A DNA stretch of 64,000 nucleotides from Candidatus Poseidoniaceae archaeon (GTDB lineage Archaea > Thermoplasmatota > Poseidoniia > Poseidoniales > Poseidoniaceae): positions 98,586 through 162,585 of the forward strand of contig CASIAW010000005.1 in assembly GCA_949372875.1 (NCBI GenBank), written 5' to 3'. This document shows positions 40,501-52,449 of the stretch, one piece after another. Below the pieces are notes generated by a model. The model was not told the DNA's origin and did not search any database. It worked only from the letters and a program-made list of their open reading frames with translations. The translations under genes were made by a program, and so were the position numbers. The first letter of the stretch is position 1. Every line of letters starts with the position of its first letter.

Positions 40501-42339
40501 TACATCTACCTCTCTAAAGTCAATGACGGAAGTCCAGATTGTCCGGCAGGCGATGACGAACCAACATATGACCCCATAACACAAGAAGAAACTTCAACTT
40601 ACGAATGCTCTTATGATGGCAGTACAATTCCTCTTTCTCAGGTGAGTGATGGAACCTATGATTGCCCTTATGGAGAAGATGAACCGTATACAGAGGAGGA
40701 GGATACTTCTGAATATGAGTGCGCTGATGGTGCGTATACAGTTCCGACCTCCTACATAAATGATCGATATGAAGACTGTGATGATGGTTCCGATGAACCC
40801 GAGTATGACCTCGAGGAAATCAGTGTATTCACATGCAATGATGGAATTGAAATCCCATTGTCTTCGGTAAACGATGATTTCAGTGATTGCTCTGATGGAA
40901 GTGATGAGCCAAATAATTTCGAATGTCTCGATGGTTCATCTCTCTCATGGTACTGGGTAAATGATGGATATGAAGACTGTCAAGATGGTTCTGATGAATC
41001 CGATATTGATTATGTAGGAAACTATGTTTGTCAAGATGGAAATGAAATTCCAATGCAGAATCTTAGAGATGAGTATGCGGATTGTAATGACGGGTCGGAT
41101 GAAATCTACTTCGATGATACTTTTGAAGAATGTGACTGGGATATCGACGATAATATGTGGGCATGCTCTGGAAGTCCAATGCCCGATGGTACATGGAGTT
41201 GGGTCATTGAGAGCGACGGTAGTTGGGCAATTACCTTAGAGCAATCTTACGATACATACTTGATCCTCATTACTCCGGAAATGACCATCAAATCGGTCAC
41301 CAATTACTTCGAAGATGACGACAACTCAGAGACGTATACTGCCGGTCTTGGTGGACATGTTATGTCCCTCAACATGGAACTTAGCGATGCTGCTCCTCCG
41401 TTTATGGTATATTTCGAAGGTATTCCAATTTCCTCAGGCGATGATACTTTCGAATGTGACGATGGGGCATTCATTGCCTTCTCATCCATTAACGACGGAA
41501 ATGAAGATTGCTCTGAAGGTGAAGATGAGCCTCAATACGAACAAAATGAAATTTCCGAGTGGAAATGCGTCACAGGTGAAGATGATGAATGGCTTTGGCT
41601 CTCTCAGGTATCTGATGGCACTCAGAATTGTCTCGATAATTCTGACGAGGACATAACGGCACTCTTTGAGTGTAATGACGGTTCAACAATTACCATCGAG
41701 ATGGTAAGCGATGGAACGAACGATTGTGCAAATGCGGAGGATGAGCCTACGTATGAACAAGGAGATCAAGAGGTTTCTGAGTTTGATTGTTATGATGGTG
41801 AAGAGATTATTCGACTTTCTTGGGTGAATGACGGATATGCTGATTGTGAAGACGGCTCAGATGAAAATCTTGGTGAAGGACATGGACATGGCATGTATGG
41901 AGTATCAACTCTCGGTTTTTCTTCAGAAATGGAAATCATTGAATGGAACGGTGGCTCTCTCACCGACTCAACGAGTGCTGACGGAATGGACCTCGTTCTT
42001 TCAATGTGTGATTCCTTTTCCCACCAGTTCACCGACGAATACATGCTTGTTTCCGAATGTGGTGCTGATGTTCAGCGATGGTCTCTTGCAGATATTTTTG
42101 CAGGGCAAGTTACTGGAATTGAATTTTATGATACTGATGAAAGTGGAACACTCACCGATGGTGACATGTTTGAAATTACTGAAGATCTTGACAATAACCT
42201 CGAATGGAATGCTGTTCGCCTAGCGAAAGGTTCTGCCTACGCAGATGAGAATCCTGAAGTTGTTCTTCCTGGTTTCACAGCTGCTCTTGGCATTATCTCA
42301 ATGCTTGGAGCTGCTCTTCTTGTCCGCAAGAACGAGTGA
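37555..42339 (+). CDS. Giant (1594 aa) acidic surface lipoprotein. Lipobox signal peptide, thrombospondin-type-3-like Asp repeats, about 24 tandem LDL-receptor-class-A-like calcium-cage modules, C-terminal PGF-CTERM archaeosortase sorting signal.
   Basis: MKIQTLLIVLMLTLSGC (lipobox). DTDNDGLPDELD, DSDDDNDGFPD, DTDGDGMPD (TSP3-like DxDxDG). Repeated modules of about 45 aa with consensus [FY]xCxDGSxIxLSxVNDGxxDCxDGSDEPxY. C-terminus LPGFTAALGIISMLGAALLVRKNE (PGF + TM + basic). Confidence 0.85.
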   Translation: MKIQTLLIVLMLTLSGCLGLNDAGEEIDPDDKFPNDTAAFYDTDNDGLPDELDGPSTSNPPLIADSDDDNDGFPDSMELSCGTNPLLDTSFPDDLDGDFECDDQDFDIDGDGIFNSADAFPLDATATTDTDGDGMPDTVTGESTLTEDTDDDNDGWSDEVETECGSNSLVASLTPIDENGDGVCDSVSTDDDGDTYSDDEETLCGSDPLDALSIPSDLDGDSICDALDEDVDGDGVSNAQDMYPSDASKHEDVPGCIDENAFNHDIGSNLDDGSCFGPEEAHSMMSEFMESGTWHFTTEQQEEMDEGEFYLIQSLFVNDAENDTTLISQVVLDDSGEEMFSISLLAKDGIIELHQYADVYLEEEGQTITMDDAVLIHDQIMTSPFMEESETWYHCEQDVSSVWFCSSSYFFTVGEEISLFDCDDGSQIYISQVNDGMTDCANDEDEPKYDETEYSEFECDTGEYIYLSEVNDGSPDCPAGDDEPTYDPITQEETSNFECYDGSTIPLSWVNDGTYDCPYQADEPYYESEETSEFDCNDEVDTIALSWVNDGYEDCQDGSDESEYSDATGNADSATDTLHLFTCDDGTMILAEYANDDNNDCSDGSDEAQSTEATTYECKNGEVIDFSLVNDQSKDCTDGSDEQYDFQCENGNSIPLSYVNNGYSYCEDGSDEPEYEEGEELSMYDCADGSQVFLSTVNDGNDDCSDGTDENPTHLDYVELVYFSCEETDSEIPLSLVNNGEEDCQDGSDEAEYDSMGNEISEYYCEDPTTFDEEDETVINLSQVNDGTEDCAFSWDEWTYVSENWFGMERDNEEELNGDCQIDGEDFFVPWVFVNDGDDDCDNGDDEPSYDSSGMETSTMTCWSGDIIALSLANDGNNDCPDGDDEILYMYVVILEGQSSSGENWSCIIPFEYLNDGDGDCQGYADEPEYDNGEELTFFECDDGTQIYLSQANDGLADCANGEDEPTWEEVEYSEFECNTGDYIYLSKVNDGSPDCPAGDDEPTYDPITQEETSTYECSYDGSTIPLSQVSDGTYDCPYGEDEPYTEEEDTSEYECADGAYTVPTSYINDRYEDCDDGSDEPEYDLEEISVFTCNDGIEIPLSSVNDDFSDCSDGSDEPNNFECLDGSSLSWYWVNDGYEDCQDGSDESDIDYVGNYVCQDGNEIPMQNLRDEYADCNDGSDEIYFDDTFEECDWDIDDNMWACSGSPMPDGTWSWVIESDGSWAITLEQSYDTYLILITPEMTIKSVTNYFEDDDNSETYTAGLGGHVMSLNMELSDAAPPFMVYFEGIPISSGDDTFECDDGAFIAFSSINDGNEDCSEGEDEPQYEQNEISEWKCVTGEDDEWLWLSQVSDGTQNCLDNSDEDITALFECNDGSTITIEMVSDGTNDCANAEDEPTYEQGDQEVSEFDCYDGEEIIRLSWVNDGYADCEDGSDENLGEGHGHGMYGVSTLGFSSEMEIIEWNGGSLTDSTSADGMDLVLSMCDSFSHQFTDEYMLVSECGADVQRWSLADIFAGQVTGIEFYDTDESGTLTDGDMFEITEDLDNNLEWNAVRLAKGSAYADENPEVVLPGFTAALGIISMLGAALLVRKNE

Positions 42340-42364: not shown

Positions 42365-45016
42365 TTAGGACACGAGAGGGTTGGAAACGTATGGCTTTGA
42401 GTCTGTACGTTGAGCCTTAAGGTTGTGAAGAAGAATCGCAGCGCTTGCAGAGAAGATTTGAACAAGAGCGAAAAACGCTTGCCAGGTTAACATGAAGATT
42501 AGTCTTGGATAAGTAGGAGAATATGCATAGAGGCAAAGACATCCCAAAACAAGGAGAGATTGTGCGAGAATAAATGGCATTAGCGGAATCTCTTGTTCTT
42601 GTATGAACATCATCATGACGCACGACGCAATCAAGAGAGGACTTGCAATCATCAAGATCATCCATCCGGTTGAAGGGCTGTTACCAGCTGCGAAATAGCC
42701 TCCTTGAACTGCTACTGCGCCCGGGTCTAATTCTCTTGGGTGTGGACAAATCCCTTCAAAACAGGTTTGAATTCCATTAACTTGACCATAAAGAGTCCAC
42801 CAGAGCAACCACATCAACCAAGGTAACATGGCATAGAACAACCAAAGCCACTGTTGCGATGATTGCCTTCGTTCAAGTCCAGTCCATTTTTTCAAGGCAG
42901 AAACAATTGTTGGGGTGGATGCTAACAAGACGGTAATACAACAAGCAGCCCATGGCCCCCATGAGACCAAAGTATGCAATGCAACTGCATGGATGGTGTG
43001 CATCTTCGAATATTCTCGATTCTCACCGAAAAATGAGTGATGTATAGCAAGCCCATACCCAGCGAGAACAAGGATGAGCATCAATCGCTCAAGAGGGTCA
43101 TAACCGATTTCACGAACGATTACGCCAAGTACGAGTGCTATCCCAAAAAATGTGGTCGCTCGATGCTCATCTTTGGGTAATACGGTGTTTTTCACTACGA
43201 GGAGCATCCAAATGATGAGAAGGCCCGTTAGCAAAAAACCACCTATGCTGACGGCACTCAAATTAATCAGATCTAACATGTAATGCCTTCCAAACAAACG
43301 ACGATGGACCAGAACGATAGCCGATAATGTCAGAGCAAACACTGACAGAAGAGGTATCATAGATTCCTTTGTGCGTTCTGTATCTTTCTCAAGAAGAATT
43401 CCTCCAAGGATGTAATACCAAGGTATGAGGAAAAACCAAAGACGCAGTCCTCCGATACTGATGAGGACAACTGCAAACAGAATGAAAAGGTAATTTCGCT
43501 CTTTCTCATCACTTCTCCAATGTCCCGAGAATGCAAGAACAGAGACGGCAAGCAAGGCGAACATAGCGCTTTGCACCATAGCTTGCGTGAGCGTTCCTTG
43601 GAATACTACTAACGCAAGGAGAGTCAAACCTACGAGGCTCCAAAAACTGGGTTCAAACTTTTTCCATTTAATCGACGTGTTTGGAGCACGACCAAGCGCT
43701 GAGCTTACCAACCAAACCGCACCAAGTGCGCCGAGTCCACGCGGAATCATAGCAGAATAAGCAAGGTTTGCTTGAAAATACATCAATACAAAGCCAAACA
43801 AACCAATACCGCCAAGCTTGATTAATTCGTCTCTTTGAGTCATTTTATTGGCTCCAAACGCATAAGCAACTCCGGCGAGGAGAATGAGTAAAGTGAGAAT
43901 GGATACAATCACATCCAATGTCCTCACTTGAATCGGTTCAGTTTCGATTGATTCCCAATCAACAACCGTTTCTGACAACATGTCTTTGTCTTGAGGATAA
44001 TAAAACACGTGTCTGTTATATCCAGCCTTCCAATTCCATTGCTCCAACGTTGAAATTTCAGAGGATGTGTGGTCCAACATCGCAAGAGGAATCCTTCCTT
44101 GCAGTTGGTTAGGGAAATCGAGAAGCAGTGTGGAGACCATGAATGCGGCGATATCTGGCTGTTTGATGTCAGACCATACTCCAGTATTCACATGCGGTCC
44201 AGAAATAATAGCAGCGACTTCTTGAGTGACTTTTTCAGCAGAACCGTGGGTTCCTGCATCGGTCATGCCGTGATCGGCAGTTATGACAACAGTCCAATCA
44301 GGCGGCACTGTTCGTAAGAGTCGGTCCACTGTCAGGTCAATGGAGAGGAGTTTCTGCCTGTATTCATCGGTTTGAATCCCCCAATGATGGCCGACTTTAT
44401 CCGGTCCAGAAAAGTGTGCAGCAATGACGTTATGTTCTCCGTTTTGAAGCCATTGTGCGGCTACAGTTTCTGTTTCTTCATCGCCTTGATAGTAGTCGCT
44501 ATGGCCTTTGAAAGTATCAACAAAACTGATATTTGGCATACCTTGGTAGATATTCCCCATCACATAGCTTCCAACCATGCCTACAGAATACCTCTCATCT
44601 TGGGATGCGAGAGTCCATGGATCATTGCCACCTGGGTGGCCAAGATTGAAGTTGTTTAATCCATCAATCGGCCTGTTTGGAACTCCAGTCATCAATTCAC
44701 TGATGCATGTCGCAGACAGCGTAAGTGGGCCTGTTTGGATGTTTAATACAGCAGCCGTTTGTTTGTGACTGTTCAGGTTCGGCATGGATTTTTCATCCAG
44801 CATCAATTCTCTTCCAACACCATCCAAAATGATGAGCAGAAATCCTTCGTTTTGACTGATTATGCTCACCGCATCGACTTCTCCAGGTGGAGTGTCTGTG
44901 TCCAGCAAGACATAAGGAGCGGTAATGAACGCTGGAATGAGCATTAAAGCGAGTAGAAAATACAACCACCGTGTTGGAGGTGAACTGTACAGTTCAGCGC
45001 TTTGCGTTGATTCCAT
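42365..45016 (-). CDS. Alkaline-phosphatase-superfamily (type I phosphodiesterase / phosphotransferase) domain fused to a C-terminal polytopic membrane domain. Architecture resembles eukaryotic GPI ethanolamine-phosphate transferases (PigN/PigO-like).
   Basis: N-terminal TM, then FLLIILDGVGRE (metal-binding Asp), GPDKVGHHWG, VVITADHGMTDAGTHGS (AlkP-core His/Asp). After about aa 380 there are at least 12 hydrophobic helices. 883 aa. Confidence 0.55.
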   Translation of the reverse strand: MESTQSAELYSSPPTRWLYFLLALMLIPAFITAPYVLLDTDTPPGEVDAVSIISQNEGFLLIILDGVGRELMLDEKSMPNLNSHKQTAAVLNIQTGPLTLSATCISELMTGVPNRPIDGLNNFNLGHPGGNDPWTLASQDERYSVGMVGSYVMGNIYQGMPNISFVDTFKGHSDYYQGDEETETVAAQWLQNGEHNVIAAHFSGPDKVGHHWGIQTDEYRQKLLSIDLTVDRLLRTVPPDWTVVITADHGMTDAGTHGSAEKVTQEVAAIISGPHVNTGVWSDIKQPDIAAFMVSTLLLDFPNQLQGRIPLAMLDHTSSEISTLEQWNWKAGYNRHVFYYPQDKDMLSETVVDWESIETEPIQVRTLDVIVSILTLLILLAGVAYAFGANKMTQRDELIKLGGIGLFGFVLMYFQANLAYSAMIPRGLGALGAVWLVSSALGRAPNTSIKWKKFEPSFWSLVGLTLLALVVFQGTLTQAMVQSAMFALLAVSVLAFSGHWRSDEKERNYLFILFAVVLISIGGLRLWFFLIPWYYILGGILLEKDTERTKESMIPLLSVFALTLSAIVLVHRRLFGRHYMLDLINLSAVSIGGFLLTGLLIIWMLLVVKNTVLPKDEHRATTFFGIALVLGVIVREIGYDPLERLMLILVLAGYGLAIHHSFFGENREYSKMHTIHAVALHTLVSWGPWAACCITVLLASTPTIVSALKKWTGLERRQSSQQWLWLFYAMLPWLMWLLWWTLYGQVNGIQTCFEGICPHPRELDPGAVAVQGGYFAAGNSPSTGWMILMIASPLLIASCVMMMFIQEQEIPLMPFILAQSLLVLGCLCLYAYSPTYPRLIFMLTWQAFFALVQIFSASAAILLHNLKAQRTDSKPYVSNPLVS

Positions 45017-45145: not shown

Positions 45146-46297
45146 TCAACTGTAGGTTCCAATGTCATCAGAGGTGATGCCATAGTGAGCCCAGACATGC
45201 TCGAGGTGAGCAGTAACGTCGTAGGAGGTTCCAAGTTGAGTAGCGTCTTGAAGGTTCAAGATCTCGTTGATTTTGTCTGCACCGTAGTGTCCATCAAAGG
45301 TTTCGTTTGCTGCGTCACAAGCGGATGCATCAGAGTTTCCGACATAAGTTACGTTTCCGTCAGTGTGGATACATGCATTGGTGTGAGCAGCCGAGTATGC
45401 TTCGATTGCCTTCCAGAATGCATATCCTTCAACTTGATACTTCTCGCCGGACTCGTTGCTGTCCATCTTCGAAGTGTACTTGAGAACTGCTTGGGAGTAT
45501 GTAATGACGAGGTTCTTGACAACGGTGTCTGCTGCTGCAGTGTATCCAGCAGAGTCTCCTGCTTGGAGTGCTGCAAGTCCGTCAACCATTGCGGTTTGAG
45601 AAGCAGTGAGAGCGTTTGAGACGCCATTGGTTTCTGTGCCAAAGTCAGCAGCGCGCTTTTCCATTACCTTAGCAGGAGAGCAGCCGTAGTCTTCATCAGG
45701 TCCGTGGAAGAATGCCCATCCTTCGTCCCAGTTGTGTGGAGCGCCGGAGTCGTTGTCGACGTTTCCAGCATCTGCCTTTGCAATTGCTGAGTTCAACTCG
45801 TGAATAGTGTAAGCAACCATTCCCATGTTAACGGTCAACTTTGCAATACCTTGGTATCGAACGGTGTCAGAAACACCAGCGAAGTCGCCTGTGCCGTCCA
45901 TTGCAGCCATGATGTGGTCATCGACTGAACCGGATGCGTCGTAGTATGCATCGTAGCCGTGGTTCTTACCATCAGCAGACGCAAAGCCAGCGAGTGTGCG
46001 GTAAGAGCCATCGCTTTTTTCTGCATTCTTGCCGTTCATGTAGATGTCCTTTGCAGTTGCGAAGTCGTAGCCGCCATCAGAGCTAGCTGCGGTCTTCATG
46101 TCGCAAAGGTCCTTCATGAGAGAGCGGTGGTTGTCAACATTTGATGCATAGGTGTAGCCACCATCTTCAGCATCCATTGCAACGACCGAATCTGCTGCGT
46201 CCGTCGTTTCGTCTTCTTCTGATGCCAAGCAGCCTGCTAATCCAGAAACTGCCATCAATGCAATCAATACTAATCCTTTCAATTTTGTGTGGTTCAT
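45146..46297 (-). CDS. Secreted lipoprotein of unknown function (DGGY/DGSY-repeat containing)
   Basis: Lipobox MNHTKLKGLVLIALMAVSGLAGC. Repeated ...DGGYTYA..., ...DGGYDFA..., ...DGSYRTLAGF... 383 aa. Confidence 0.6.
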   Translation of the reverse strand: MNHTKLKGLVLIALMAVSGLAGCLASEEDETTDAADSVVAMDAEDGGYTYASNVDNHRSLMKDLCDMKTAASSDGGYDFATAKDIYMNGKNAEKSDGSYRTLAGFASADGKNHGYDAYYDASGSVDDHIMAAMDGTGDFAGVSDTVRYQGIAKLTVNMGMVAYTIHELNSAIAKADAGNVDNDSGAPHNWDEGWAFFHGPDEDYGCSPAKVMEKRAADFGTETNGVSNALTASQTAMVDGLAALQAGDSAGYTAAADTVVKNLVITYSQAVLKYTSKMDSNESGEKYQVEGYAFWKAIEAYSAAHTNACIHTDGNVTYVGNSDASACDAANETFDGHYGADKINEILNLQDATQLGTSYDVTAHLEHVWAHYGITSDDIGTYS

Positions 46298-46492: not shown

Positions 46493-46918
46493 TCAGCAAC
46501 AGCCTTCATCACGCATGGGGGCGCTGATGAAAGTAACCTTATCGACATTGGCAGTATTCTGGAGTTGCTCAATAACCGAACGATAGTGAGATGCCTTTCC
46601 AATGCCTTGGATCACATCGACACACGAATGGCTATGTTTGAGACAGCTGTGGTTGTATGAAGTAATCTCAAGTTCACCGGAGTGACGTAAATCGATAAGT
46701 TTATGCTCATTTCCGTGTTGATAGTAGATGACTAAGTGACCTTCAACGACTGTATCATCATCCATATCTGCTAACTCTCCTCTCTGTTGTATTTCAGCAA
46801 AAAGTAAAGCAGCATCTCGAATGAAGCGACTTCGGTTTTGATATCCTGATTTTTTGATTAAGTCTTCAAAGTCCTCGGCAAATTTTTTATCAGCACTAAA
46901 CGAAATGATTTGGCTCAT
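46493..46918 (-). CDS. nikR: NikR-like metal-responsive transcriptional regulator (N-terminal ribbon-helix-helix + C-terminal ACT-like metal-binding domain)
   Basis: N-terminal DKKFAEDFEDLIKKSGYQNRSRFIRDAALLF resembles the NikR RHH region (...LDxLxxxRGYxNRSEAIRD...). C-terminal domain has HLVIYYQHGNEH and HSCLKHSHSCVDV, His/Cys clusters placed like the NikR high-affinity metal site. 141 aa. Confidence 0.6.
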   Translation of the reverse strand: MSQIISFSADKKFAEDFEDLIKKSGYQNRSRFIRDAALLFAEIQQRGELADMDDDTVVEGHLVIYYQHGNEHKLIDLRHSGELEITSYNHSCLKHSHSCVDVIQGIGKASHYRSVIEQLQNTANVDKVTFISAPMRDEGCC

Positions 46919-46938: not shown

Positions 46939-46974
46939 CACTAATAATAACTGCCTAGGTGGTAATTATTAGTG
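46939..46974. promoter_or_regulatory. Perfect 10-N16-10 inverted repeat (CACTAATAAT-N16-ATTATTAGTG) in the divergent promoter between the nikR-like gene and the ZnuA-like gene. Candidate NikR-type operator.
   Basis: Read directly. The spacer centre contains CCTAGG. A TATA-like TTAAATA (46977-46983) sits about 27 nt upstream of the ATG at 47007. E. coli NikR is known to bind a GTATGA-N16-TCATAC dyad. Confidence 0.5.
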
Positions 46975-47006
46975 TTCATTAAATAGTTAATAGAAAACGG
47001 CACGAC

Positions 47007-50000
47007 ATGAACAACAACCGTATGAGAGTCGTTTTCGTAAGCCTGATTATGATTTTTTCAAGCCTTGCTGGATGTATTGGCGATGAAGAATTGGAAGCTA
47101 TTGAAGAGGCCACTGACCTCTTGAATGATGCAACAAACTCCACAATGGATGGCAACAATACCACAACCATTGGGATGTTGGGATCCGTAATGGTTTCAAC
47201 ATACCACGTCGGAGAACTCGTCAAAGCAATCGCTGGCGAACATGTCGACATGGAATACATGAGTCTTGACAACATCCCCGTCCACGATTACGAACCATCT
47301 GCATCGGATCTCATCCGACTTCAGAACTCTGACGTTTTCTTCTACCACGGACTAGGACTCGAACCCTGGGTCGATGCAACGCTTGACTCCTTGGGTAACG
47401 ATGCTCCAACAGCCGTTCAAGTTCACACCATGCCTAGTGGGGAAGAGACCCTCGATTATGAATCGTTACTCGTCTCTGATTTGTGCAAAACTCTCTTAGA
47501 AGGGCCATACGAAACCGTTGAACTTGTTGATGAAGAAGAGCACGCTGATGATGTTAAAATCCTAGCTGAATACATGGCGCATAACATCACATTCCCTCAC
47601 GAAGAGCATGACGACCATGCTGATGAAGAAGGTGACCATGATGACCACGCTGAGGAAGAAGACGGGCATGACGGCCATGCTGATGAAGAAGGCAACCATT
47701 CAGAAGAAGGTCACGAAGACCACGACGCTCATGATGATGGCCACGAAGGCCATGCCCACCTTGTTGCTGAACAAACTCTTTCCAACCCTGCAGGATGTCC
47801 TGCTGACACAATGATTTCCATATTCCACCTCGAAGAAGGGGAATACATCATTGAATTCGATGCAGAACATGCAGATGATTTCACAATGGCAGTTCTCAAG
47901 ATGCTTGGCGGTCACGCACACCACGACCATGGTGACCACGGTGACGAACACGGAGATGAACATGATGACCATGATGGTCATGGTGACGAACACTTCGTTT
48001 GCCACGATATGACAACTCACGAAAACACCAACCACACCACTGAGGAAGAATGTGTAGCCGCAGGCCACATGTGGATGAAAGAAGACGGTCACGACGACCA
48101 TGAAGGCGACTACTGCCACGATACAACAACTCACGAAAACACCAACCATACCACTGAGGAAGAATGTGTTGCCGCAGGCCACACGTGGATGGAAGAAGCC
48201 GATCACGATGACCATGATGGCCACGACGACCATGATGGCCACGACGACCATGACGACCACGATGGCCATGACGACCACGATGGCCATGACGACCCGTGCG
48301 CCGACCACTATGACCACGACGACCATGATGACCACGGAGATCACATGACTGCAGAAGAAGCGCTTGAAGAAGCCGATTCAAACAACGACAGTCTCCTTTC
48401 TTGGGATGAATTCTGGGATTCCTGGAACGACGATGGGCACGATGACCATGACGACCATGACGACCATGATGAAGAACATCACGGCGTCTTCGTATTATTC
48501 CCTGACAACTGCATGCTCATGTATGCTGCTGAAGACGATATGCTGCCTGAAAACGCAACTGGATGGAACCTCACAACATCTGCAATGATGGGAGATGACA
48601 CACTCGAGCTCAATTACTCCGTTCATGAAACATACGGCACTAGTGTCAGTGGAATCAACGGATTTATGGCTCCAGAAGATTATTCCTGGTATTGGCAACT
48701 TATGCTCTGGAACGGCACAGAAAACAACACTGGCTGGGAAGTCAGCAATGTTGGTATTGACTCTGTAATGATTCCTGAAATGACAGAACACGTCGCTTGG
48801 ATGCCAAATTCCTCGGACATGTCATATTTGCCAGACCTCAGTATGATGCATGATGACCATGATGACCATGATGACCATGATGGCCATGATGACTTCGAAA
48901 GAACATTCCACTGCAGTTCTACCGTTGGTGGCACTCCAGACACAGAAATTCCGTTCTCTCAAGTGAACGATGGCACTGAAGACTGTGGCGATGGTTCCGA
49001 TGAGCCTCAAGACTTTGACGGTGATGGTATTGTTGACAACTGGTTCGACTGCATGGATGGTTCAAATGTGTCCATGGAATTCGTTAACGACGGATATGAT
49101 GACTGCCCTGATGGTGATGATGAATCTCACGATGATGACCACAGTGACAATGAAGGAGCGCCAACGCCTCAAGAATTTATCAATATGACTGATACTGACG
49201 GAAATGGAACAATGAGCTTTGATGAATTCATTGCATTCATGAATTCACCTGATCCTGACGGTGAACATGAAGATGATGATGAGTCATTGCCACAATCTAT
49301 GGTTGACGAACTCAGAGTAATATTCGATAACAACGATGCAGATCAGTCCGGAGAGTTAGATCTCGATGAACTCGACCAATTTATCATTGACACGGATGAG
49401 TACTTTATGTCAATGGATGGCGGTGATGGCGAACCGACTCAAGAGGAACTCCAGTTCCTCTTCAACGCATCCGATGCAGACGGCGACCAATTGTTGAACG
49501 TTACCGAACTTGGTGCATTCATGGAAATGCTCGAAGACCTCATGGAAGATGACCACCATGATGATCACGACGACCATGACAATCACGACGACCATGACGA
49601 CCACGGCGACGATAACCACGCTGACGAAGAAGATCACCATCCTGTCGGCTATGTGACCCTTCACGTTAATGCTGAAGGCGACTATGGTTTCGCTCTACCT
49701 ATGGATGTTGAATTCCACATCATGATGGCCGAAGGCGGCCATGACGACCATGCTGGCCATGATGATCACGACGACCATGATGACCATGCTGGAGAAGAAG
49801 GCGACCATGCTGAAGAAGAAGGCGACCATGATGACCACGCTGATGAAGAAGGTAACCATACTGATGAAGAAGGTGACCATGATGACCACGCTGACGAAGA
49901 AGGAGCTCTCGATTATGACCCTCACAGCTGGCTTAGCCCACTTGCTTTCAAGGCACAAGTGAATGTTGTTCTCGACGGACTAACCACTGCTTTCCCTGCT

Positions 50001-50447
50001 GGAGAAGCAGTCTTCAAGGTAAACGCTGAGGCATATGCTGCTCAATTAACAGCTCTTGACGTTTCATTTGACGCTGCCTTCGGAGAAGGCGGCCAATGCA
50101 TGGCTGGAGGTCAACAAAAGACTGTGGCTTCAAACCACAACGCTTACTCCTACATCGCAGTTGAATACGGAATCCAATTCATGACCGTTCACGGACTTGA
50201 CCCAGAAGGAGAACCATCTCCTGAAGATGTCGCTAAGGTTGTTAACTTCATCAAGGAAGAAGGAATCACTGTTCTGTTTGTTGAAGAATACACCGACCAA
50301 TCTTCAGTGCAAAGCATTGTTGATGAAACAGGTGTGTCGATTCAAATCCTTTACACCATGGAAATGGCACCAAGCGATTCTGATGACAATTACATGACAA
50401 TGATGACCAAGAACCTTGCAAACCTCGTAGCCGGTATCGGATGCTGA
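47007..50447 (+). CDS. znuA: ZnuA/TroA-family (cluster-9) metal-binding lipoprotein with an interlobe His/Asp/Glu-rich loop hyper-expanded to about 800 aa, containing EF-hand-like and LDLa-like calcium-binding modules
   Basis: Lipobox MNNNRMRVVFVSLIMIFSSLAGC. N-lobe motif ...DNIPVHDYEPSASDLIRLQNSDVFFYHGLGLEPWV... C-lobe DPHSWLSPLAF...ASNHNAYSYIAVEYGIQ...EPSPEDVAKVVNFIKEEGITVLFVEE... (TroA-like). Between them are HDDHDGHDDHDDHDG-type runs, DTDGNGTMSFDEF / DNNDADQSGELDLDEL / DADGDQLLNVTEL (EF-hand DxDxDG...E loops) and two VNDGxxDCxDGSDE modules. Confidence 0.85.
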   Translation: MNNNRMRVVFVSLIMIFSSLAGCIGDEELEAIEEATDLLNDATNSTMDGNNTTTIGMLGSVMVSTYHVGELVKAIAGEHVDMEYMSLDNIPVHDYEPSASDLIRLQNSDVFFYHGLGLEPWVDATLDSLGNDAPTAVQVHTMPSGEETLDYESLLVSDLCKTLLEGPYETVELVDEEEHADDVKILAEYMAHNITFPHEEHDDHADEEGDHDDHAEEEDGHDGHADEEGNHSEEGHEDHDAHDDGHEGHAHLVAEQTLSNPAGCPADTMISIFHLEEGEYIIEFDAEHADDFTMAVLKMLGGHAHHDHGDHGDEHGDEHDDHDGHGDEHFVCHDMTTHENTNHTTEEECVAAGHMWMKEDGHDDHEGDYCHDTTTHENTNHTTEEECVAAGHTWMEEADHDDHDGHDDHDGHDDHDDHDGHDDHDGHDDPCADHYDHDDHDDHGDHMTAEEALEEADSNNDSLLSWDEFWDSWNDDGHDDHDDHDDHDEEHHGVFVLFPDNCMLMYAAEDDMLPENATGWNLTTSAMMGDDTLELNYSVHETYGTSVSGINGFMAPEDYSWYWQLMLWNGTENNTGWEVSNVGIDSVMIPEMTEHVAWMPNSSDMSYLPDLSMMHDDHDDHDDHDGHDDFERTFHCSSTVGGTPDTEIPFSQVNDGTEDCGDGSDEPQDFDGDGIVDNWFDCMDGSNVSMEFVNDGYDDCPDGDDESHDDDHSDNEGAPTPQEFINMTDTDGNGTMSFDEFIAFMNSPDPDGEHEDDDESLPQSMVDELRVIFDNNDADQSGELDLDELDQFIIDTDEYFMSMDGGDGEPTQEELQFLFNASDADGDQLLNVTELGAFMEMLEDLMEDDHHDDHDDHDNHDDHDDHGDDNHADEEDHHPVGYVTLHVNAEGDYGFALPMDVEFHIMMAEGGHDDHAGHDDHDDHDDHAGEEGDHAEEEGDHDDHADEEGNHTDEEGDHDDHADEEGALDYDPHSWLSPLAFKAQVNVVLDGLTTAFPAGEAVFKVNAEAYAAQLTALDVSFDAAFGEGGQCMAGGQQKTVASNHNAYSYIAVEYGIQFMTVHGLDPEGEPSPEDVAKVVNFIKEEGITVLFVEEYTDQSSVQSIVDETGVSIQILYTMEMAPSDSDDNYMTMMTKNLANLVAGIGC

Positions 50448-50502
50448 TTGTAAGAACTTGATTTCGCAAACATAACCATGAACTGAAGAGAAGGTGAAAG
50501 AC

Positions 50503-50622
50503 GTGCACCTTGTAGATACACTTCCAATCATCGTTGTTTCAACGGTGTTCGTTGCCTTTTTTGGCTACTTACTGGTTGAATCTTTCTGGGCTACATACTC
50601 CAGTCAAGACGATTTTTCGTGA
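50503..50622 (+). CDS. Possible small (39 aa) single-TM membrane protein between the ZnuA-like and ZnuC genes (GTG start). Speculative.
   Basis: Manual translation gives VHLVDTLPIIVVSTVFVAFFGYLLVESFWATYSSQDDFS*. Hydrophobic core of about 20 residues. Below the 60-aa ORF-track cutoff. Confidence 0.2.
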   Translation: MHLVDTLPIIVVSTVFVAFFGYLLVESFWATYSSQDDFS

Positions 50623-50671: not shown

Positions 50672-51535
50672 ATGGTAGTGCTTAATATGCAACCTCCAGC
50701 CGATAACAAAGTGATGGAAGAAGCGGCTGCAATCCTAAAAATAAAGGATTTGACCGTAAGCCGTTCCGGAAAAGTGGTTATCCACGACATCAATCTAAGC
50801 GTACGTAAAGGCGAATTTATCGGTTTAGTTGGACCCAATGGTAGCGGTAAGTCAACGCTTCTTCTGTCCATTCTTGGCGTTTTGAGAGCCCAGCAAGGCT
50901 CTATTCAGATATATGGTCAAAAACCAATGTCAAGAAGCATTCTGGGTAAAATTGGCTGGGTCTCTCAAGCTGCAGCGGTCATGCCGAAGAACGTGAGAAT
51001 TACAGTTCGAGAACTCGTCCAACTAGGTACCTTAAACTCGAGGAATATGTTTTGGCGAAGAAAGGGAATCCATCGTGAAAAAGTGGACCAGGCAATGAAA
51101 ATGGTTGGATTAGAAGGGGTTGCAGACAATGACATAGCGCGACTTTCAGGAGGGCAGCGTCAGCGTGCTGTTATTGGTCGTGCTCTTGCATCCGATGCAC
51201 AATTTATCTTGTTGGATGAACCTCTCGTGGGTATTGACCGAGAATCTCGAAACTCGTTACTCAAGTTATTAGACAAGCTCTGCCATGATGAAAATAAAAC
51301 TATCCTGATGGTCTCACACGATCTCGCTGCGATTCGTCAAACCGCTCACCGTATGATTTATCTTGAAGAATCTATACGATTTGACGGGCTAACTGAAGAC
51401 TTCCCTGACCTTACAACCCTTGCTGGATTACGCGGCATTGAACCAGTGCATGGTCATAGCCATGACAAAAATATTCCGAAATCAATTGTTCTTGGGACTG
51501 AGAAGAATGAACATTCCAATAAGGAGGAAGAATAA
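50672..51535 (+). CDS. znuC: ABC transporter ATP-binding protein (ZnuC/TroB-like, metal-type ABC)
   Basis: Walker A GPNGSGKSTLL, ABC signature LSGGQRQRAVIGRAL, Walker B FILLDEP, H-loop MVSHDL. Confidence 0.85.
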   Translation: MVVLNMQPPADNKVMEEAAAILKIKDLTVSRSGKVVIHDINLSVRKGEFIGLVGPNGSGKSTLLLSILGVLRAQQGSIQIYGQKPMSRSILGKIGWVSQAAAVMPKNVRITVRELVQLGTLNSRNMFWRRKGIHREKVDQAMKMVGLEGVADNDIARLSGGQRQRAVIGRALASDAQFILLDEPLVGIDRESRNSLLKLLDKLCHDENKTILMVSHDLAAIRQTAHRMIYLEESIRFDGLTEDFPDLTTLAGLRGIEPVHGHSHDKNIPKSIVLGTEKNEHSNKEEE

Positions 51536-52449
51536 TGGGAATAGGAATGACGATTTTAGAACTCGTTGCTCCAGTACTCGAGTTTATCGCACCAATGGTT
51601 CCTGGAGAGATTTTTCCATATTTCTTTACTATGGAAATGTTTCAACGTGCTCTTTTGGCAGCGATCATGGTCACGATGGTTGCTGGTGTACTTGGCTCCT
51701 TTTTGCTGATTCGAAACCTCGCCCTTATCGGGGACGGTTTGGCTCACGTATCCTTTGGTGGGGTAGCTGTTGGTGTGGTATTGGGGGCCACTTCCCCCCT
51801 CTGGTATGCACTGGTATTCAGCGTAATTTCTGCAGTTATTATTCACGAAATGCAAACCAGAGAATTGCTAACTGGTGATGCCTCAATCGCTATTTTCTTA
51901 ACTGGAATGCTCGCTTTAGGTCTCGTTGTTCTTCGAGTATTTGGTGGAGGAATAACGAGCGATATCGAGGGATATCTGTTCGGAAGTTTACTTCTCATTG
52001 ACGAGAAGAGTCTTGACATGATTGCTAGCATCAGTATATTCTCACTTCTTTCCCTCTTAATGCTCTATTCTGGATTACTTTCGACGACCATTGATCCACT
52101 TGCTGCTCGTGTTCAGGGACTTCCAGTTCGAGCAATTGGACTCGTGTTTAGCATCATCACTGCTGCTGTAGTTGTGAGTATGGTTCAAGTTATTGGGGCT
52201 TTACTCGTAACCGCGTTACTGGTCACTCCAGCTGCAACCGCCCAACTGGTAGGGCGTAGTTTCCGTTCCTGTTTAATTTGGACTCAAGTTTTTGGAATGT
52301 CTGCTATTTTCATTGGGCTGTATCTCTCAGCAGAGCACGACTCGGGTAGTGGAGCAATGATTGCTTTAGTTGCGGCTTCGATATTTGCAACAGTGGCAAT
52401 CTTAAAAACTGTAATTCTGGGTTTGATTAAGCCAAATCAAAACCTCTAA
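51535..52449 (+). CDS. znuB: ABC-3 family metal-transport permease (ZnuB/TroC-like)
   Basis: 304 aa, about 8-9 TM helices. Start codon overlaps the znuC stop (ATAATGGG). ABC-3-like hydrophobic profile. Confidence 0.85.
   Translation: MGIGMTILELVAPVLEFIAPMVPGEIFPYFFTMEMFQRALLAAIMVTMVAGVLGSFLLIRNLALIGDGLAHVSFGGVAVGVVLGATSPLWYALVFSVISAVIIHEMQTRELLTGDASIAIFLTGMLALGLVVLRVFGGGITSDIEGYLFGSLLLIDEKSLDMIASISIFSLLSLLMLYSGLLSTTIDPLAARVQGLPVRAIGLVFSIITAAVVVSMVQVIGALLVTALLVTPAATAQLVGRSFRSCLIWTQVFGMSAIFIGLYLSAEHDSGSGAMIALVAASIFATVAILKTVILGLIKPNQNL

What the first reader, a model, noticed from the sequence alone, without database searches (positions are those of the whole stretch)
47007..50447. ZnuA/TroA homolog with its His-rich loop expanded to about 800 aa, including EF-hands and LDLa-like modules
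Canonical ZnuA has a His-rich loop of about 20-50 aa immediately before the DPHxWL motif. In this protein the N-lobe (about aa 55-160, …PVHDYEPS…FFYHGLGLEPWV…) and the C-lobe (from about aa 940, DPHSWLSPLAF…) are separated by about 800 residues. The insert is dominated by HDDHDGHDDHDDH and ADEEGDHDDH runs, hundreds of potential metal ligands in total. It also holds three EF-hand-like loops (DTDGNGTMSFDEF, DNNDADQSGELDLDEL, DADGDQLLNVTEL) and two VNDGxxDCxDGSDE modules of the kind found in the nearby giant surface protein. A 38-aa Cys/His unit (CHDxTTHENTNHTTEEECVAAGHxWM) is tandemly duplicated. An ABC substrate-binding protein converted into a massive metal/Ca sponge or metallophore-like cell-surface reservoir has not, as far as I know, been described.
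Basis: seen in the sequence. Interest (0 to 1): 0.85.

Follow-up and report, generated by a model that had tools for sequence, protein, structure and literature searches.

The report
Archaeal zinc-binding protein with giant loop
A marine archaeon's zinc-uptake binding protein carries, where relatives have a 20-50-residue histidine loop, an 815-residue chain of folded modules and histidine-rich strings; hundreds of related archaea share this design, which may be a built-in net for catching scarce zinc.

Summary
ORF 47007-50447 (+) encodes an uninterrupted 1146-aa lipoprotein. It is a ZnuA/AdcA-type (cluster A-I) metal-binding protein with all four ligands conserved (H93, H973, H1044, E1119). 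It sits in a znuA–small TM ORF–znuC–znuB operon beside a NikR-like regulator.

About 815 residues are inserted exactly at the His-loop position. The distance between the two flanking ligand histidines is 880 residues, against a median of 78 in ordinary relatives.

This is not an assembly artefact. At least 679 homologues, named by their sources as Poseidoniales (Marine Group II archaea), share the design. Their inserts range from about 170 to 830 residues. The window's protein is the longest I saw.

The insert is not a plain loop. Roughly 60% is predicted to fold:
- a conserved beta-sandwich "hub" with two invariant cysteines that probably form a disulfide
- two Cys/His mini-domains
- four EF-hands
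- a 120-aa alpha/beta domain
- two reduced LDLa modules

These modules are linked by about eight His/Asp/Glu runs. They are under purifying selection (dN/dS 0.04-0.30) and are shuffled as cassettes between close relatives.

The most likely function, which is inferred and not tested, is a tethered, calcium-stiffened, low-affinity zinc-harvesting antenna that feeds the high-affinity site. I found no published description. I rate it a new variant of a known kind.

The parts
46493..46918 (-). Divergently transcribed NikR-family (ribbon-helix-helix plus NikR_C) regulator, 141 aa. It is the candidate metal-responsive repressor of the operon.
   Evidence: Pfam RHH_1 and NikR_C at their cut-offs. NCBIfam nickel-responsive regulator 2.8e-12, far below its cut-off. 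Aligns to P. horikoshii NikR 2bj1 at 3.8e-8, where the query reads HSC against 2bj1 HVH; that these are nickel-ligand positions is from memory. The same 141-aa gene lies upstream in L004 and L011.
46939..46974 (.). Inverted repeat CACTAATAATAA-N12-TAATTATTAGTG, followed by a TATA-like TTAAATAG (46979-46986) about 20 nt before the ATG. Candidate operator overlapping the promoter.
   Evidence: Read directly. Conserved upstream of znuA in L004 and L001. The core pattern occurs once in 64 kb, with 0.03 expected.
47007..47075 (+). Signal peptide and lipobox (SSLAG-C23). The protein is a membrane-anchored lipoprotein.
   Evidence: G22 and C23 are invariant, and S18-A21 at least 90% conserved, in 80 aligned homologues.
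47169..47441 (+). ZnuA N-lobe (aa 55-145) with ligand His93 (PVHDYEPS).
   Evidence: PDB alignment to AdcA residues 5-77. pLDDT 77-96. H93 invariant.
47442..47606 (+). Hub element S1 (aa 146-200): a helix carrying Cys160, then strands and the hairpin 'ILAEYMAHNITFP'.
   Evidence: Present in 120 of 120 homologues. pLDDT 73-91. In short homologues the hairpin is moved to after the Cys/His units.
47607..47753 (+). His/Asp/Glu run 1 (aa 201-249), predicted disordered.
   Evidence: pLDDT below 50 at aa 213-245. 30- and 60-nt imperfect tandem repeats. Length varies between homologues.
47754..47906 (+). Hub element beta1 (aa 250-300): four strands with Cys264 (GCPAD), ending in GGHAHH.
   Evidence: Present in 119 of 120 homologues, with a fixed 38-aa spacing between its anchor motifs. 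pLDDT 83-88.
47907..47993 (+). His run 2 (aa 301-329).
   Evidence: pLDDT below 50. His-run listing.
47994..48194 (+). Two tandem Cys/His mini-domains (aa 330-358 and 369-395), each CH-x4-H-x4-H-x5-C-x4-H-x-W, with a beta-beta-alpha-beta predicted fold.
   Evidence: TRF period 114 nt, 1.9 copies, 90% matches. Present in 108 of 120 homologues. pLDDT 86-91.
48195..48344 (+). His run 3 (aa 397-446), (HDDHDG)n, containing Cys431.
   Evidence: 9-, 18-, 27- and 45-nt repeats. pLDDT below 50.
48345..48434 (+). Degenerate EF-hand 'EF0' (aa 447-476, DSNNDSLLSWDEF).
   Evidence: Present in 69 of 120 homologues. Helix-loop-helix with pLDDT 88-93. Weak Pfam EF-hand_1 match, E 0.008.
48474..48842 (+). Alpha/beta globular domain of unknown family (aa 490-612), with many N-x-S/T sequons.
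   Evidence: pLDDT 84-92. Present in 31 of 120 homologues. No Pfam or PDB sequence match; DUF4430 matches only weakly, 3 of 21 members, best E 0.014. dN/dS 0.087.
48894..49124 (+). Pair of reduced LDL-receptor class A-like calcium-cage modules (aa 630-706), with 2 Cys each instead of 6.
   Evidence: Pfam Ldl_recept_a 33 bits against a cut-off of 24.1 when scanned alone. tblastn to repeats of the 37555-42339 protein, up to 55% identity. Present in only 6 of 120 homologues but 83-92% identical there, with different flanks. pLDDT below 50.
49149..49556 (+). Three canonical EF-hands (loops at aa 729, 777, 823) within aa 715-850.
   Evidence: PS00018 exact matches. Pfam EF-hand_7 8.4e-13 and EF-hand_1 1.8e-9. 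Predicted helices flank each loop.
49557..49631 (+). His run (aa 851-875).
49632..49742 (+). Hub element beta2 (aa 876-912): three strands (VTLHVNAEGDYGFALP...FHIMM), ending in GGH. It looks like a sequence repeat of beta1.
   Evidence: Present in 119 of 120 homologues. pLDDT about 90. Alignment A2.
49743..49898 (+). His/acid run (aa 913-964), (ADEEGDHDDH)n, leading into the DPH ligand.
   Evidence: 21-, 30- and 51-nt repeats. pLDDT below 50.
49899..50447 (+). ZnuA C part (aa 965-1146) with ligands H973 (DPHSW), H1044 (NHNAYSY) and E1119 (YTMEM). It also holds Cys1031 and the C-terminal Cys1146.
   Evidence: PDB alignment. Foldseek to AdcA, YcdH and AztC. Ligands at least 90% conserved.
50494..50622 (+). 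Conserved 42-aa single-pass membrane ORF between znuA and znuC.
   Evidence: The same ORF (M..VDTLPI..V.TVF...GYLL..SFW) lies at the same place in L001, L004 and L011. It is called as a 38-aa gene in L011.
50672..51535 (+). ABC ATPase (ZnuC-like).
   Evidence: Pfam ABC_tran 1.2e-31.
51535..52449 (+). ABC-3 family permease (ZnuB-like).
   Evidence: Pfam ABC-3 5.1e-59.

Best explanation
This is the membrane-anchored substrate-binding lipoprotein of a ZnuABC-type (cluster A-I) zinc importer of a Poseidoniales (Marine Group II) archaeon. Its high-affinity His3Glu site is intact. The flexible His-rich loop that flanks this site in zinc-specific relatives has been replaced by an 815-residue nested appendage.

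The appendage has these parts:
- a conserved beta-sandwich hub (S1, beta1, beta2), probably braced by a disulfide
- about eight disordered His/Asp/Glu runs that leave the hub
- two Cys/His mini-domains
- calcium-binding modules (four EF-hands and two reduced LDLa cages)
- a 120-aa alpha/beta domain

Proposed mechanism, in steps. Step 1 is shown by sequence. Steps 2-4 are inferred.
1. The protein is lipid-anchored on the outer face of the single archaeal membrane.
2. In seawater (about 10 mM Ca2+) the EF-hand and LDLa modules are loaded with calcium and the cysteines are disulfide-bonded. This gives stiff spacers that keep the very acidic chain extended.
3. The His/Asp/Glu runs and Cys/His units bind Zn2+ weakly but in large numbers. 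This enlarges the capture volume and concentrates metal next to the binding cleft.
4. Metal passes in cis to the His3Glu site, and the loaded protein delivers it to ZnuB/ZnuC.

In effect this would be a metallochaperone built into the binding protein. A cell with no outer membrane needs such tethering, because it cannot retain a soluble chaperone.

His-run codon repeats allow slippage and cassette exchange, so capacity and module content vary between strains. Expression is probably controlled by the adjacent NikR-family regulator through the palindrome at the promoter.
For: Identity and integrity:
- Pfam ZnuA 4.6e-42; alignment to AdcA on both sides of the insert; Foldseek hits to AdcA, YcdH and AztC.
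- Ligands H93, H973, H1044 and E1119, and the lipobox Cys, are conserved in 80 homologues.
- An ABC ATPase and an ABC-3 permease lie downstream. The same order is seen in L001, L004 and L011.

Real, and a family trait:
- 679 homologues at E<1e-5. The top 120 are all 634-1099 aa and carry the insert.
- The C-lobe search shows a discrete clade at 50% identity or more, then ordinary ZnuA of 290-360 aa at 41% or less.
- The ligand-to-ligand distance is 880 residues here, 171-641 in complete clade representatives, and a median of 78 outside the clade.

Folded and selected:
- AlphaFold gives pLDDT 83-93 for the hub elements, Cys/His units, EF0 and the globular domain, and below 50 for the His runs.
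- 101 of 115 homologues have an even number of Cys after the lipobox Cys.
- dN/dS is 0.04-0.30 in the insert modules against 0.06-0.11 in the lobes.

Metal role of such loops:
- Deleting the ZnuA loop removes several lower-affinity zinc sites.
- These loops mediate transfer from the chaperones ZinT and AztD.
- A loop of more than 30 residues is already called 'extremely long' in the field (all three points from PMC7731109).

Precedent for a chaperone in cis at this loop: P0188 has an AztD domain (NF038015, E 4.4e-38) inserted at the same position.

His enrichment is specific to this protein. The equally acidic LDLa surface protein nearby has 0.8% His.
Against: - No binding, transport or expression data exist. 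Steps 2-4 rest on analogy.
- In P. denitrificans and Salmonella, loop deletion has little or no growth effect (PMC7731109). Loops may therefore be dispensable even where they are present.
- The adjacent regulator is NikR-like, not Zur. Zinc specificity rests only on the 3His/1Glu ligand pattern.
- A bulky insert next to the cleft could hinder docking on the permease.
- The LDLa segment and part of the EF region are modelled with low confidence.
- The single-sandwich hub is a model-based inference. Some database members lack beta1 or beta2; these may be collapsed assemblies, because they leave an odd Cys count.
- The exact lengths of the His runs in this window cannot be verified without reads.
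Confidence: 0.55

Rival explanations
1. The insert is a regulatory plug or sensor. At high external zinc the His-rich appendage fills with metal, then occludes the cleft or blocks docking on the permease. It would throttle uptake, not enhance it. This role was proposed for the Synechocystis ZnuA loop (recalled from the literature on that protein, not read here).
For: The insert sits immediately beside the metal site. Loops are not needed for high-affinity binding or for the permease interaction (PMC7731109). A large appendage could easily interfere sterically.
Against: A sensor needs only a few sites. An 815-residue, multi-module insert with 93 His, and with strain-to-strain changes in capacity, is poorly explained. 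Open-ocean zinc is scarce, so protection from excess seems an unlikely driver. Transcriptional control is already provided by the adjacent regulator.
Confidence: 0.12
2. The insert is mainly a calcium-dependent surface-interaction or adhesion module, for example binding to particles, algal polymers, the S-layer or partner proteins. The His runs would be incidental. This would be moonlighting, as in the streptococcal ZnuA homologues Lmb and Lbp, which bind laminin.
For: EF-hands, LDLa modules and a CBM-like beta-sandwich are typical of extracellular interaction proteins. The LDLa cassette is shared with a giant PGF-CTERM surface protein 5 kb away. Lmb and Lbp are among the structural relatives. 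The globular domain has many N-glycosylation sequons.
Confidence: 0.12
3. The system imports a metal other than zinc, such as nickel or cobalt. The poly-His appendage would be a nickel/cobalt trap comparable to Hpn, HypB or UreE His-rich tails, and expression would be controlled by a true nickel-responsive NikR.
For: The divergent regulator belongs to the NikR family. His-rich runs bind Ni2+ and Co2+ well (general chemistry). A cluster A-I protein (FpvC) has been crystallised with Ni2+ (hit list).
Against: The 3His/1Glu ligand set plus a His-rich loop is the signature of the zinc-specific groups of cluster A-I (PMC7731109). The closest solved relatives are the zinc proteins AdcA, YcdH and AdcAII. 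The regulator scores far below the NikR cut-offs. At one position that I recall from memory as a nickel ligand it has Cys in place of His (H-S-C for H-V-H). The resulting His2Cys2 set would suit tetrahedral zinc better than square-planar nickel (inference).
Confidence: 0.1
4. The expansion is largely neutral. Codon-repeat slippage and cassette insertion are simply tolerated in a surface loop that does not matter, in a lineage whose exported proteins are generally acidic and repeat-rich.
For: The His runs are imperfect tandem DNA repeats. Their lengths differ by clean indels between close relatives, and accessory modules come and go. Loop deletions in model bacteria have mild phenotypes.
Against: Insert modules are under purifying selection as strong as in the lobes. 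The hub and Cys/His units are kept in 108-120 of 120 members, across both Poseidoniales families named by the sources. No complete clade member seen has a canonical short loop; the minimum distance is 171 against a median of 78 outside.
Confidence: 0.09
5. The long ORF is an assembly or frameshift artefact that fuses separate genes.
For: His-run repeats do break and corrupt assemblies. 7 of 10 GTDB loci end inside the gene, L004 has a frameshift, and some database entries look collapsed.
Against: The reading frame is open for 3,441 nt. Both ZnuA halves are needed for one fold, and they flank the insert. Independent assemblies (Tara/ENA, JGI, NCBI MAGs) give the same order of modules. P0001 and P0002 together support most junctions, apart from LDLa to EF1.
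Confidence: 0.02

Closest known systems
Zinc-specific cluster A-I substrate-binding proteins with a His-rich loop (E. coli, Synechocystis and Paracoccus ZnuA; PF01297)
   Same: Same fold, same ligand positions (3 His plus Glu), same operon partners (ABC-3 permease, ATPase), and a His/acid-rich flexible element at the same position next to the metal site.
   Different: The loop there is about 10-50 residues and disordered; more than 30 is already called 'extremely long' (PMC7731109). Here it is about 815 residues, about 60% folded, with a conserved beta-sandwich hub, Cys/His units and calcium-binding modules. The host is archaeal, the protein is lipid-anchored, and the regulator is NikR-like instead of Zur.
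Streptococcus pneumoniae AdcA (ZnuA-like domain fused to a ZinT-like chaperone domain) and AdcAII with the surface Pht proteins
   Same: Best sequence and structure match for the core. A monoderm organism keeps accessory zinc-capturing capacity attached to the binding protein or anchored to the surface.
   Different: AdcA's extra domain is a C-terminal ZinT fold, not an insertion in the loop. No ZinT domain is detected here. The score against the AdcA model is 59 bits with a cut-off of 700.
AztC/AztD system, and AztD-in-loop fusion proteins (P0188); TIGR03772 'anchored repeat' binding proteins
   Same: AztD transfers zinc to AztC through this very loop (PMC7731109). In P0188 an AztD domain (E 4.4e-38) is inserted at the same loop position. 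This shows that the site accepts whole chaperone domains.
   Different: The Poseidoniales insert has no similarity to AztD. It is a different, multi-module construction with long His runs. Scores against AztC (122 bits, cut-off 350) and TIGR03772 (72 bits, cut-off 350) are far below membership.
High-capacity, low-affinity ion buffers and His-rich metal stores (calsequestrin; Hpn and HypB-type poly-His proteins). Comparison from general knowledge.
   Same: Very high density of acidic and His ligands in low-complexity runs, which suggests many weak sites.
   Different: Those proteins are soluble stores, not inserts in a transporter's binding protein. There is no sequence relationship, and nothing was tested here.
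LDL-receptor class A and EF-hand calcium modules of eukaryotic and bacterial extracellular proteins
   Same: The EF-hand loops fit PS00018 and Pfam. The LDLa acidic cage D-C-x-D-G-S-D-E is present.
   Different: The LDLa modules keep only 2 of the 6 cysteines and are modelled with low confidence. The setting inside a transporter loop is unusual.

Membership tests
Cluster A-I metal substrate-binding proteins (ZnuA/TroA, PF01297) | Sequence match to the family model above the curated cut-off, covering both lobes | tested here: met
   144.7 bits against a cut-off of 29, in two stretches. PDB phmmer to AdcA at 5.2e-37, with N and C parts aligned.
Cluster A-I metal substrate-binding proteins (ZnuA/TroA, PF01297) | Two alpha/beta lobes joined by a long rigid helix | tested here: met
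   In the AlphaFold model the N-lobe spans aa 59-145, long helices span 978-995 and 997-1025, and the C-lobe has pLDDT 75-97. Foldseek gives probability 1.00 to AdcA, YcdH, AztC and TroA.
Cluster A-I metal substrate-binding proteins (ZnuA/TroA, PF01297) | Four metal ligands at the lobe interface | tested here: met
   H93, H973, H1044 and E1119 are invariant or at least 90% conserved in 80 homologues. They align to the HEYEP, DPHVW, QHAAFNY and PLES motifs of AdcA.
Cluster A-I metal substrate-binding proteins (ZnuA/TroA, PF01297) | Encoded with an ABC-3 permease and an ABC ATPase | tested here: met
   The same order is seen in L001, L004 and L011.
Zinc-specific subgroup (Groups I/II of cluster A-I) | 3His/1Glu (or water) coordination plus a flexible His-containing loop next to the site | tested here: met
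   The ligand pattern is His, His, His, Glu. The criterion is taken from PMC7731109.
Zinc-specific subgroup (Groups I/II of cluster A-I) | Demonstrated zinc binding and transport | not testable with these tools
   This needs ITC or ICP-MS and uptake assays.
EF-hand calcium-binding motif | 12-residue loop pattern flanked by helices, with a Pfam match above the cut-off | tested here: met
   PS00018 matches exactly at aa 729, 777 and 823. EF-hand_7 scores 48.9 bits (cut-off 30) and EF-hand_1 36.9 (cut-off 25.4). Helices 721-728/738-745, 763-774/786-802 and 812-822/832-850 flank the loops. Calcium binding itself is not testable here.
LDL-receptor class A domain (PF00057) | About 40 residues with six cysteines (three disulfides) and the acidic calcium cage D-x-x-D-C-x-D-G-S-D-E | tested here: not met
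   The acidic cage is present, and the isolated segment scores 33 bits against a cut-off of 24.1. Each module has only 2 Cys (636/660 and 682/700), and pLDDT is below 50. I therefore call them 'LDLa-like, reduced' and do not file them as members.
AdcA-type fusion (ZnuA plus ZinT) | A ZinT/YodA lipocalin-like domain | tested here: not met
   No ZinT family appears in the Pfam or NCBIfam results. The AdcA model scores 59 bits against a cut-off of 700.
AztC / TIGR03772 anchored-repeat binding proteins | Score above the equivalog cut-off | tested here: not met
   AztC scores 121.7 (cut-off 350) and TIGR03772 scores 71.9 (cut-off 350.45).
NikR (for the adjacent regulator) | RHH DNA-binding domain plus a C-terminal domain with the His3Cys nickel site, and a score above the NCBIfam cut-off | tested here: inconclusive
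   The domains are detected at the Pfam cut-offs. NCBIfam scores are 23-47 bits against cut-offs of 83-175. One ligand position reads Cys instead of His in the alignment to 2bj1; the ligand numbering is recalled from memory.

The most novel reading that the evidence does not exclude
Poseidoniales archaea have turned the ZnuA loop into a cis-tethered, calcium-structured, high-capacity zinc-harvesting organelle-like appendage. It would be a built-in metallochaperone, or 'antenna', that binds roughly 15-45 Zn2+ per molecule. That figure is my own estimate from 60 His in runs and 93 His in the insert, at 2-4 His per ion. The appendage would be based on a previously undescribed beta-sandwich hub and Cys/His metal-binding mini-domains. 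Its capacity would be tuned between strains by His-run slippage and cassette exchange, and it would contribute measurably to zinc acquisition by one of the most abundant archaeal groups of the surface ocean.
Probability: 0.4. Interest if true: 0.8.

Novelty: new variant of a known kind. Interest (0 to 1): 0.65.

Why it matters
The function of the His-rich loop of ZnuA-type proteins has been debated for about two decades. Loop deletions in model bacteria give weak phenotypes. Here nature offers an extreme version: a loop about ten times the usual span, conserved and under selection across a whole order of abundant marine archaea.

If the appendage is a zinc-capturing antenna, three things follow:
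- It would show how a cell without an outer membrane scavenges a metal that is scarce in surface sea water.
- It would add a protein-level player to ocean zinc cycling.
- It would supply new small metal-binding modules (the hub and the Cys/His units) for study.

The finding also has a practical side. The His-run repeats break assemblies of these genomes, so this gene is often truncated or collapsed in public MAGs.

Tried and rejected
- Exact-sequence look-up of the protein found nothing on record.
- Pfam on the isolated insert segments gave nothing for the globular domain, the hub pieces or the Cys/His units.
- Profile searches of the hub (A2) and the globular domain (A4) against PDB sequences returned only His-tag artefacts and noise.
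- My guess that the globular domain is DUF4430-like got only weak support: 3 of 21 members, best E 0.014. I do not claim it.
I modelled the contiguous insert of the short homologue P0082 instead.
- The afdb50 fold library was not available. I therefore could not look for stand-alone relatives of the hub.
- Four literature searches found no description of this expansion. One Poseidoniales paper used ZnuA only for a gene tree (PMC10877094).
- Short clade members in the representative library turned out to be N-terminal fragments, an adaptor chimera (P0131, 'MCIRDR'), or possibly collapsed assemblies. I did not use them as evidence for short-loop orthologues.
- The long antisense ORFs inside the gene (for example 47700-48344 on the minus strand) translate the complement of the His-codon repeats (MVVVIVV...). 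I disregarded them.

Full report
1. THE OBSERVATION

The ORF 47007..50447 (+) is open for 1146 codons. Pfam finds ZnuA (PF01297, E 4.6e-42) in two stretches. It also finds EF-hand_7 (aa 768-837) and EF-hand_1 (aa 723-746), and a weak LDLa signal.

phmmer against PDB sequences aligns aa 61-133 to residues 5-77 of the ZnuA-like domain of S. pneumoniae AdcA (7jj8). It aligns aa 952-1140 to residues 94-277. The two halves of one fold are therefore separated by about 815 extra residues, at exactly the position of the His-rich loop.

The insert (aa 146-960) holds 93 His, 169 Asp and 97 Glu. The ORF is 8.9% His, against 0.8-5.7% in 34 other ORFs of the window. A similarly acidic surface protein nearby has only 0.8% His, so the His enrichment is specific to this protein.

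- The three EF-hand loops match PROSITE PS00018 exactly at aa 729, 777 and 823, and a fourth, degenerate loop lies at aa 457.
- The LDLa-like pair scores 33 bits (cut-off 24.1) when scanned alone.
- That pair matches about 20 repeats of the 1594-aa LDLa/PGF-CTERM protein at 37555-42339 at up to 55% identity.
- The Cys/His unit is a 114-nt tandem duplication with 90% matches.

Two corrections apply. DPHSW is at aa 971, not about 940. The insert is not mostly His runs.

2. NOT AN ARTEFACT, BUT A FAMILY TRAIT

A database search gave 679 homologues at E<1e-5. The best 120 are all 634-1099 aa, all carry ZnuA, and many carry EF-hand Pfam domains. Sources name them Candidatus Poseidoniaceae, Candidatus Thalassarchaeum or 'Euryarchaeota archaeon'. 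NCBI calls them 'zinc ABC transporter substrate-binding protein', and JGI calls them 'ZnuA/Ca2+-binding EF-hand superfamily'.

GTDB representative genomes give the same taxonomic picture. PGF-CTERM and deoxyhypusine synthase in the window fit an archaeon.

A full HMMER scan with the C-lobe alone shows a discrete clade: 43 representatives at E<1e-30, with C-lobe identity of 50% or more. Below that it drops to ordinary ZnuA proteins of 290-360 aa at 41% identity or less.

The distance from the N-lobe ligand His to the DPH His is:
- 880 residues in the window
- 390-833 in the top hits
- 171-641 in complete clade representatives
- a median of 78 (IQR 66-84) in 41 non-clade representatives

The window's protein is the longest I saw.

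Close relatives from independent assemblies (P0001 from Tara/ENA, P0002 from JGI) are collinear with it module by module. Most junctions are seen in at least one of them. The LDLa-to-EF1 junction is not, and it resembles the arrangement in P0012 and P0037.

The repeats do damage assemblies. 7 of 10 GTDB loci end inside the gene and L004 has a frameshift. The exact His-run lengths here therefore remain unverified.

3. ANATOMY OF THE INSERT

AlphaFold was run on the full protein with 80 homologues (mean pLDDT 69). It predicts the following folded segments:
- the two ZnuA lobes
- S1, aa 151-200 (a helix plus strands)
- beta1, aa 256-299
- two beta-beta-alpha-beta Cys/His units, aa 330-358 and 369-395 (pLDDT 86-91)
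- a helix-loop-helix, aa 449-475
- an alpha/beta domain, aa 490-610 (pLDDT 84-92)
- the EF-hand region, aa 720-850
- beta2, aa 880-907

Disordered segments (pLDDT below 50) coincide with the His/acid runs and with the LDLa pair.

A census of the 120 homologues shows which parts define the family:

| Module | Homologues with it (of 120) |
|---|---|
| S1 | 120 |
| beta1 | 119 |
| beta2 | 119 |
| Cys/His units | 108 |
| EF0 | 69 |
| EF2-3 | 59 |
| globular domain | 31 |
| EF1 | 25 |
| LDLa pair | 6 |

Most of the length variation lies between beta1 and beta2 (153-589 aa; the window is the maximum), while beta1 has a fixed 38-aa spacing between its anchor motifs.

Beta1 and beta2 look like repeats of one another, and each ends in GGH followed by a His run. 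In short homologues the S1 hairpin (EIHAEYVAHTLSFPE) sits after the Cys/His units instead of before beta1. This permutation is expected if these pieces assemble into one domain joined by floppy linkers.

Cys160 (S1) and Cys264 (beta1) are invariant. The protein has 14 Cys after the lipobox Cys, and 101 of 115 homologues have an even number. This fits an all-disulfide extracellular protein.

The globular domain has no Pfam or PDB sequence relative. DUF4430 is only a weak lead.

4. SELECTION AND EVOLUTION

I compared the window with its closest full-length relative (L011, which encodes P0001). dN/dS by region was:
- LDLa: 0.04
- beta2: 0.08
- globular domain: 0.09
- EF0: 0.14
- beta1: 0.19
- Cys/His unit and EF3: 0.24-0.30
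- N-lobe: 0.11
- C-lobe: 0.06

The insert modules are thus as constrained as the transporter fold.

The His runs are imperfect tandem repeats with periods of 9-60 nt. They differ between close relatives by clean indels.

Modules behave as cassettes. P0002 lacks the LDLa pair. P0001 has Cys/His units where the window has EF1 and EF2. The LDLa cassette is 83-92% identical in six members that are otherwise 43-73% identical, and it has different neighbours in each. I infer that the His-codon repeats provide the microhomology for this shuffling.

5. CONTEXT

Downstream lie a conserved 42-aa single-pass membrane ORF (50494-50622, also present in L001, L004 and L011), an ABC ATPase, and an ABC-3 permease.

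Upstream and divergent is a 141-aa NikR-family regulator. In the alignment to P. horikoshii NikR, three of the four nickel-ligand positions are kept and one His is replaced by Cys; the ligand numbering is from memory.

Between the two genes lies a 12-nt-arm inverted repeat (46939-46974), just upstream of a TATA-like element. The repeat is conserved in L001 and L004 and unique in the window.

Further upstream are a FEA1-related lipoprotein (321 bits, cut-off 250) and a phosphodiesterase-family protein. In L001 and L011 a P-type ATPase with an ArsR-type regulator lies nearby. This is a metal-handling neighbourhood.

6. HOW IT MOST LIKELY WORKS

Shown by sequence or model: a lipobox lipoprotein, an intact cluster A-I fold, a His3Glu ligand set, a transporter operon, an insert next to the metal site, and folded modules under selection.

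Established for the family (PMC7731109):
- Zinc-specific cluster A-I proteins use 3His/1Glu or 3His/water and carry a flexible loop.
- Deleting the ZnuA loop removes several lower-affinity zinc sites.
- The loop mediates transfer from the chaperones ZinT and AztD.
- A loop of more than 30 residues is called 'extremely long'.

Inferred: the His/Asp/Glu runs and Cys/His units supply many weak zinc sites. The EF-hand and LDLa modules, loaded with calcium in sea water, and the disulfides act as stiffeners.

A monoderm cell cannot keep a soluble chaperone, so tethering makes sense. AdcA carries ZinT in cis. I also found a binding protein (P0188) with a complete AztD chaperone domain (E 4.4e-38) inserted at this same loop. 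That precedent is the strongest indirect support for the 'built-in chaperone' reading.

Weak points:
- Loop deletions have mild phenotypes in model bacteria.
- The regulator is NikR-like, not Zur.
- A bulky insert could hinder docking on the permease.
- Nothing has been measured.

7. COMPARISON, NOVELTY AND VERDICT

The protein is a member of the cluster A-I family and carries the signature of its zinc-type subgroup. It is not a member of the AdcA, AztC or TIGR03772 families; its scores are far below their cut-offs. The LDLa-like modules fail the six-cysteine criterion.

Other lineages carry smaller inserts at this loop: about 100-140-aa beta-rich inserts in P0208 and P0223, a roughly 100-aa pure His loop in P0172, and AztD in P0188. 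The principle of inserting at this loop is therefore not unique. The scale, the hub, the Cys/His units, the calcium modules and the clade-wide conservation are.

Four full-text searches found no description of it. I rate it a new variant of a known kind, with interest 0.65. Identity and reality of the feature are near certain. The antenna/chaperone function is the best-supported hypothesis but is untested.

Noticed in passing
window 46493-46918 (-) and 46939-46974: The NikR-family regulator next to the operon has H-S-C where P. horikoshii NikR has the H-V-H nickel ligands, giving a possible His2Cys2 site. A conserved 12-nt-arm palindrome lies at the znuA promoter and is also present in L001, where no nikR-like gene is adjacent. 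This may be a zinc-responsive offshoot of NikR.
   Followed up: partly
window 50494-50622 (+): A conserved 42-aa single-pass membrane ORF lies between znuA and znuC. It is present at the same place in L001, L004 and L011. It may be an unrecognised fourth component of the transporter.
   Followed up: partly
P0188 (756 aa, from the representative library; not in the window): This ZnuA-family binding protein has a complete AztD zinc-metallochaperone domain (NCBIfam NF038015, E 4.4e-38, aa 162-550) inserted at the His-loop position. It is a chaperone-in-loop fusion. P0208 and P0223 carry roughly 100-140-aa beta-rich inserts at the same site.
   Followed up: partly
window 37555-42339 (+): A 1594-aa, very acidic (27% Asp+Glu, 4% Cys) surface protein with a PGF-CTERM anchor, a bacterial TSP3 repeat, and about 20 LDLa-like repeats. 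These repeats share up to 55% identity with the LDLa cassette in the ZnuA insert.
   Followed up: partly
LDLa cassette, window 48894-49124; homologues P0001, P0012, P0016, P0025, P0037, P0050: The LDLa pair is 83-92% identical in family members that are otherwise 43-73% identical, and it has different neighbouring modules in each. This suggests recent cassette transfer between lineages.
   Followed up: partly
L002, L003, L005-L009 (contig ends) and L004 6594 (frameshift); P0131, P0126, P0142, P0149, P0146: The His-codon repeats break or collapse assemblies. 7 of 10 species-representative loci end inside this gene, and one has a frameshift. Several database entries are fragments, an adaptor chimera ('MCIRDR'), or possible internal collapses with an odd Cys count. 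Public annotations of this gene are often truncated.
   Followed up: partly
window 45146-46297 (-) and 42365-45016 (-): A FEA1-related lipoprotein (low-iron-inducible family; NCBIfam 321 bits, cut-off 250) and an 883-aa phosphodiesterase/nucleotide pyrophosphatase-family protein lie just upstream. The region looks like a metal- and nutrient-acquisition neighbourhood.
   Followed up: no
L001 2154-5882 and L011 2963-6677: In relatives the znuA operon lies next to a P-type ATPase (about 900 aa), an HTH_20 (ArsR-type) regulator and a 130-aa Cys-rich zinc-ribbon ORF. This may be a metal efflux/uptake island. The arrangement is not present in the window.
   Followed up: no
window 47700-48344 (-), 47896-48381 (-), 48100-48348 (+): Long ORFs in other frames and on the other strand inside the gene translate the His-codon repeats as poly-Val/Ile/Met or poly-Thr. 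They are by-products of the repeats, not genes.
   Followed up: yes
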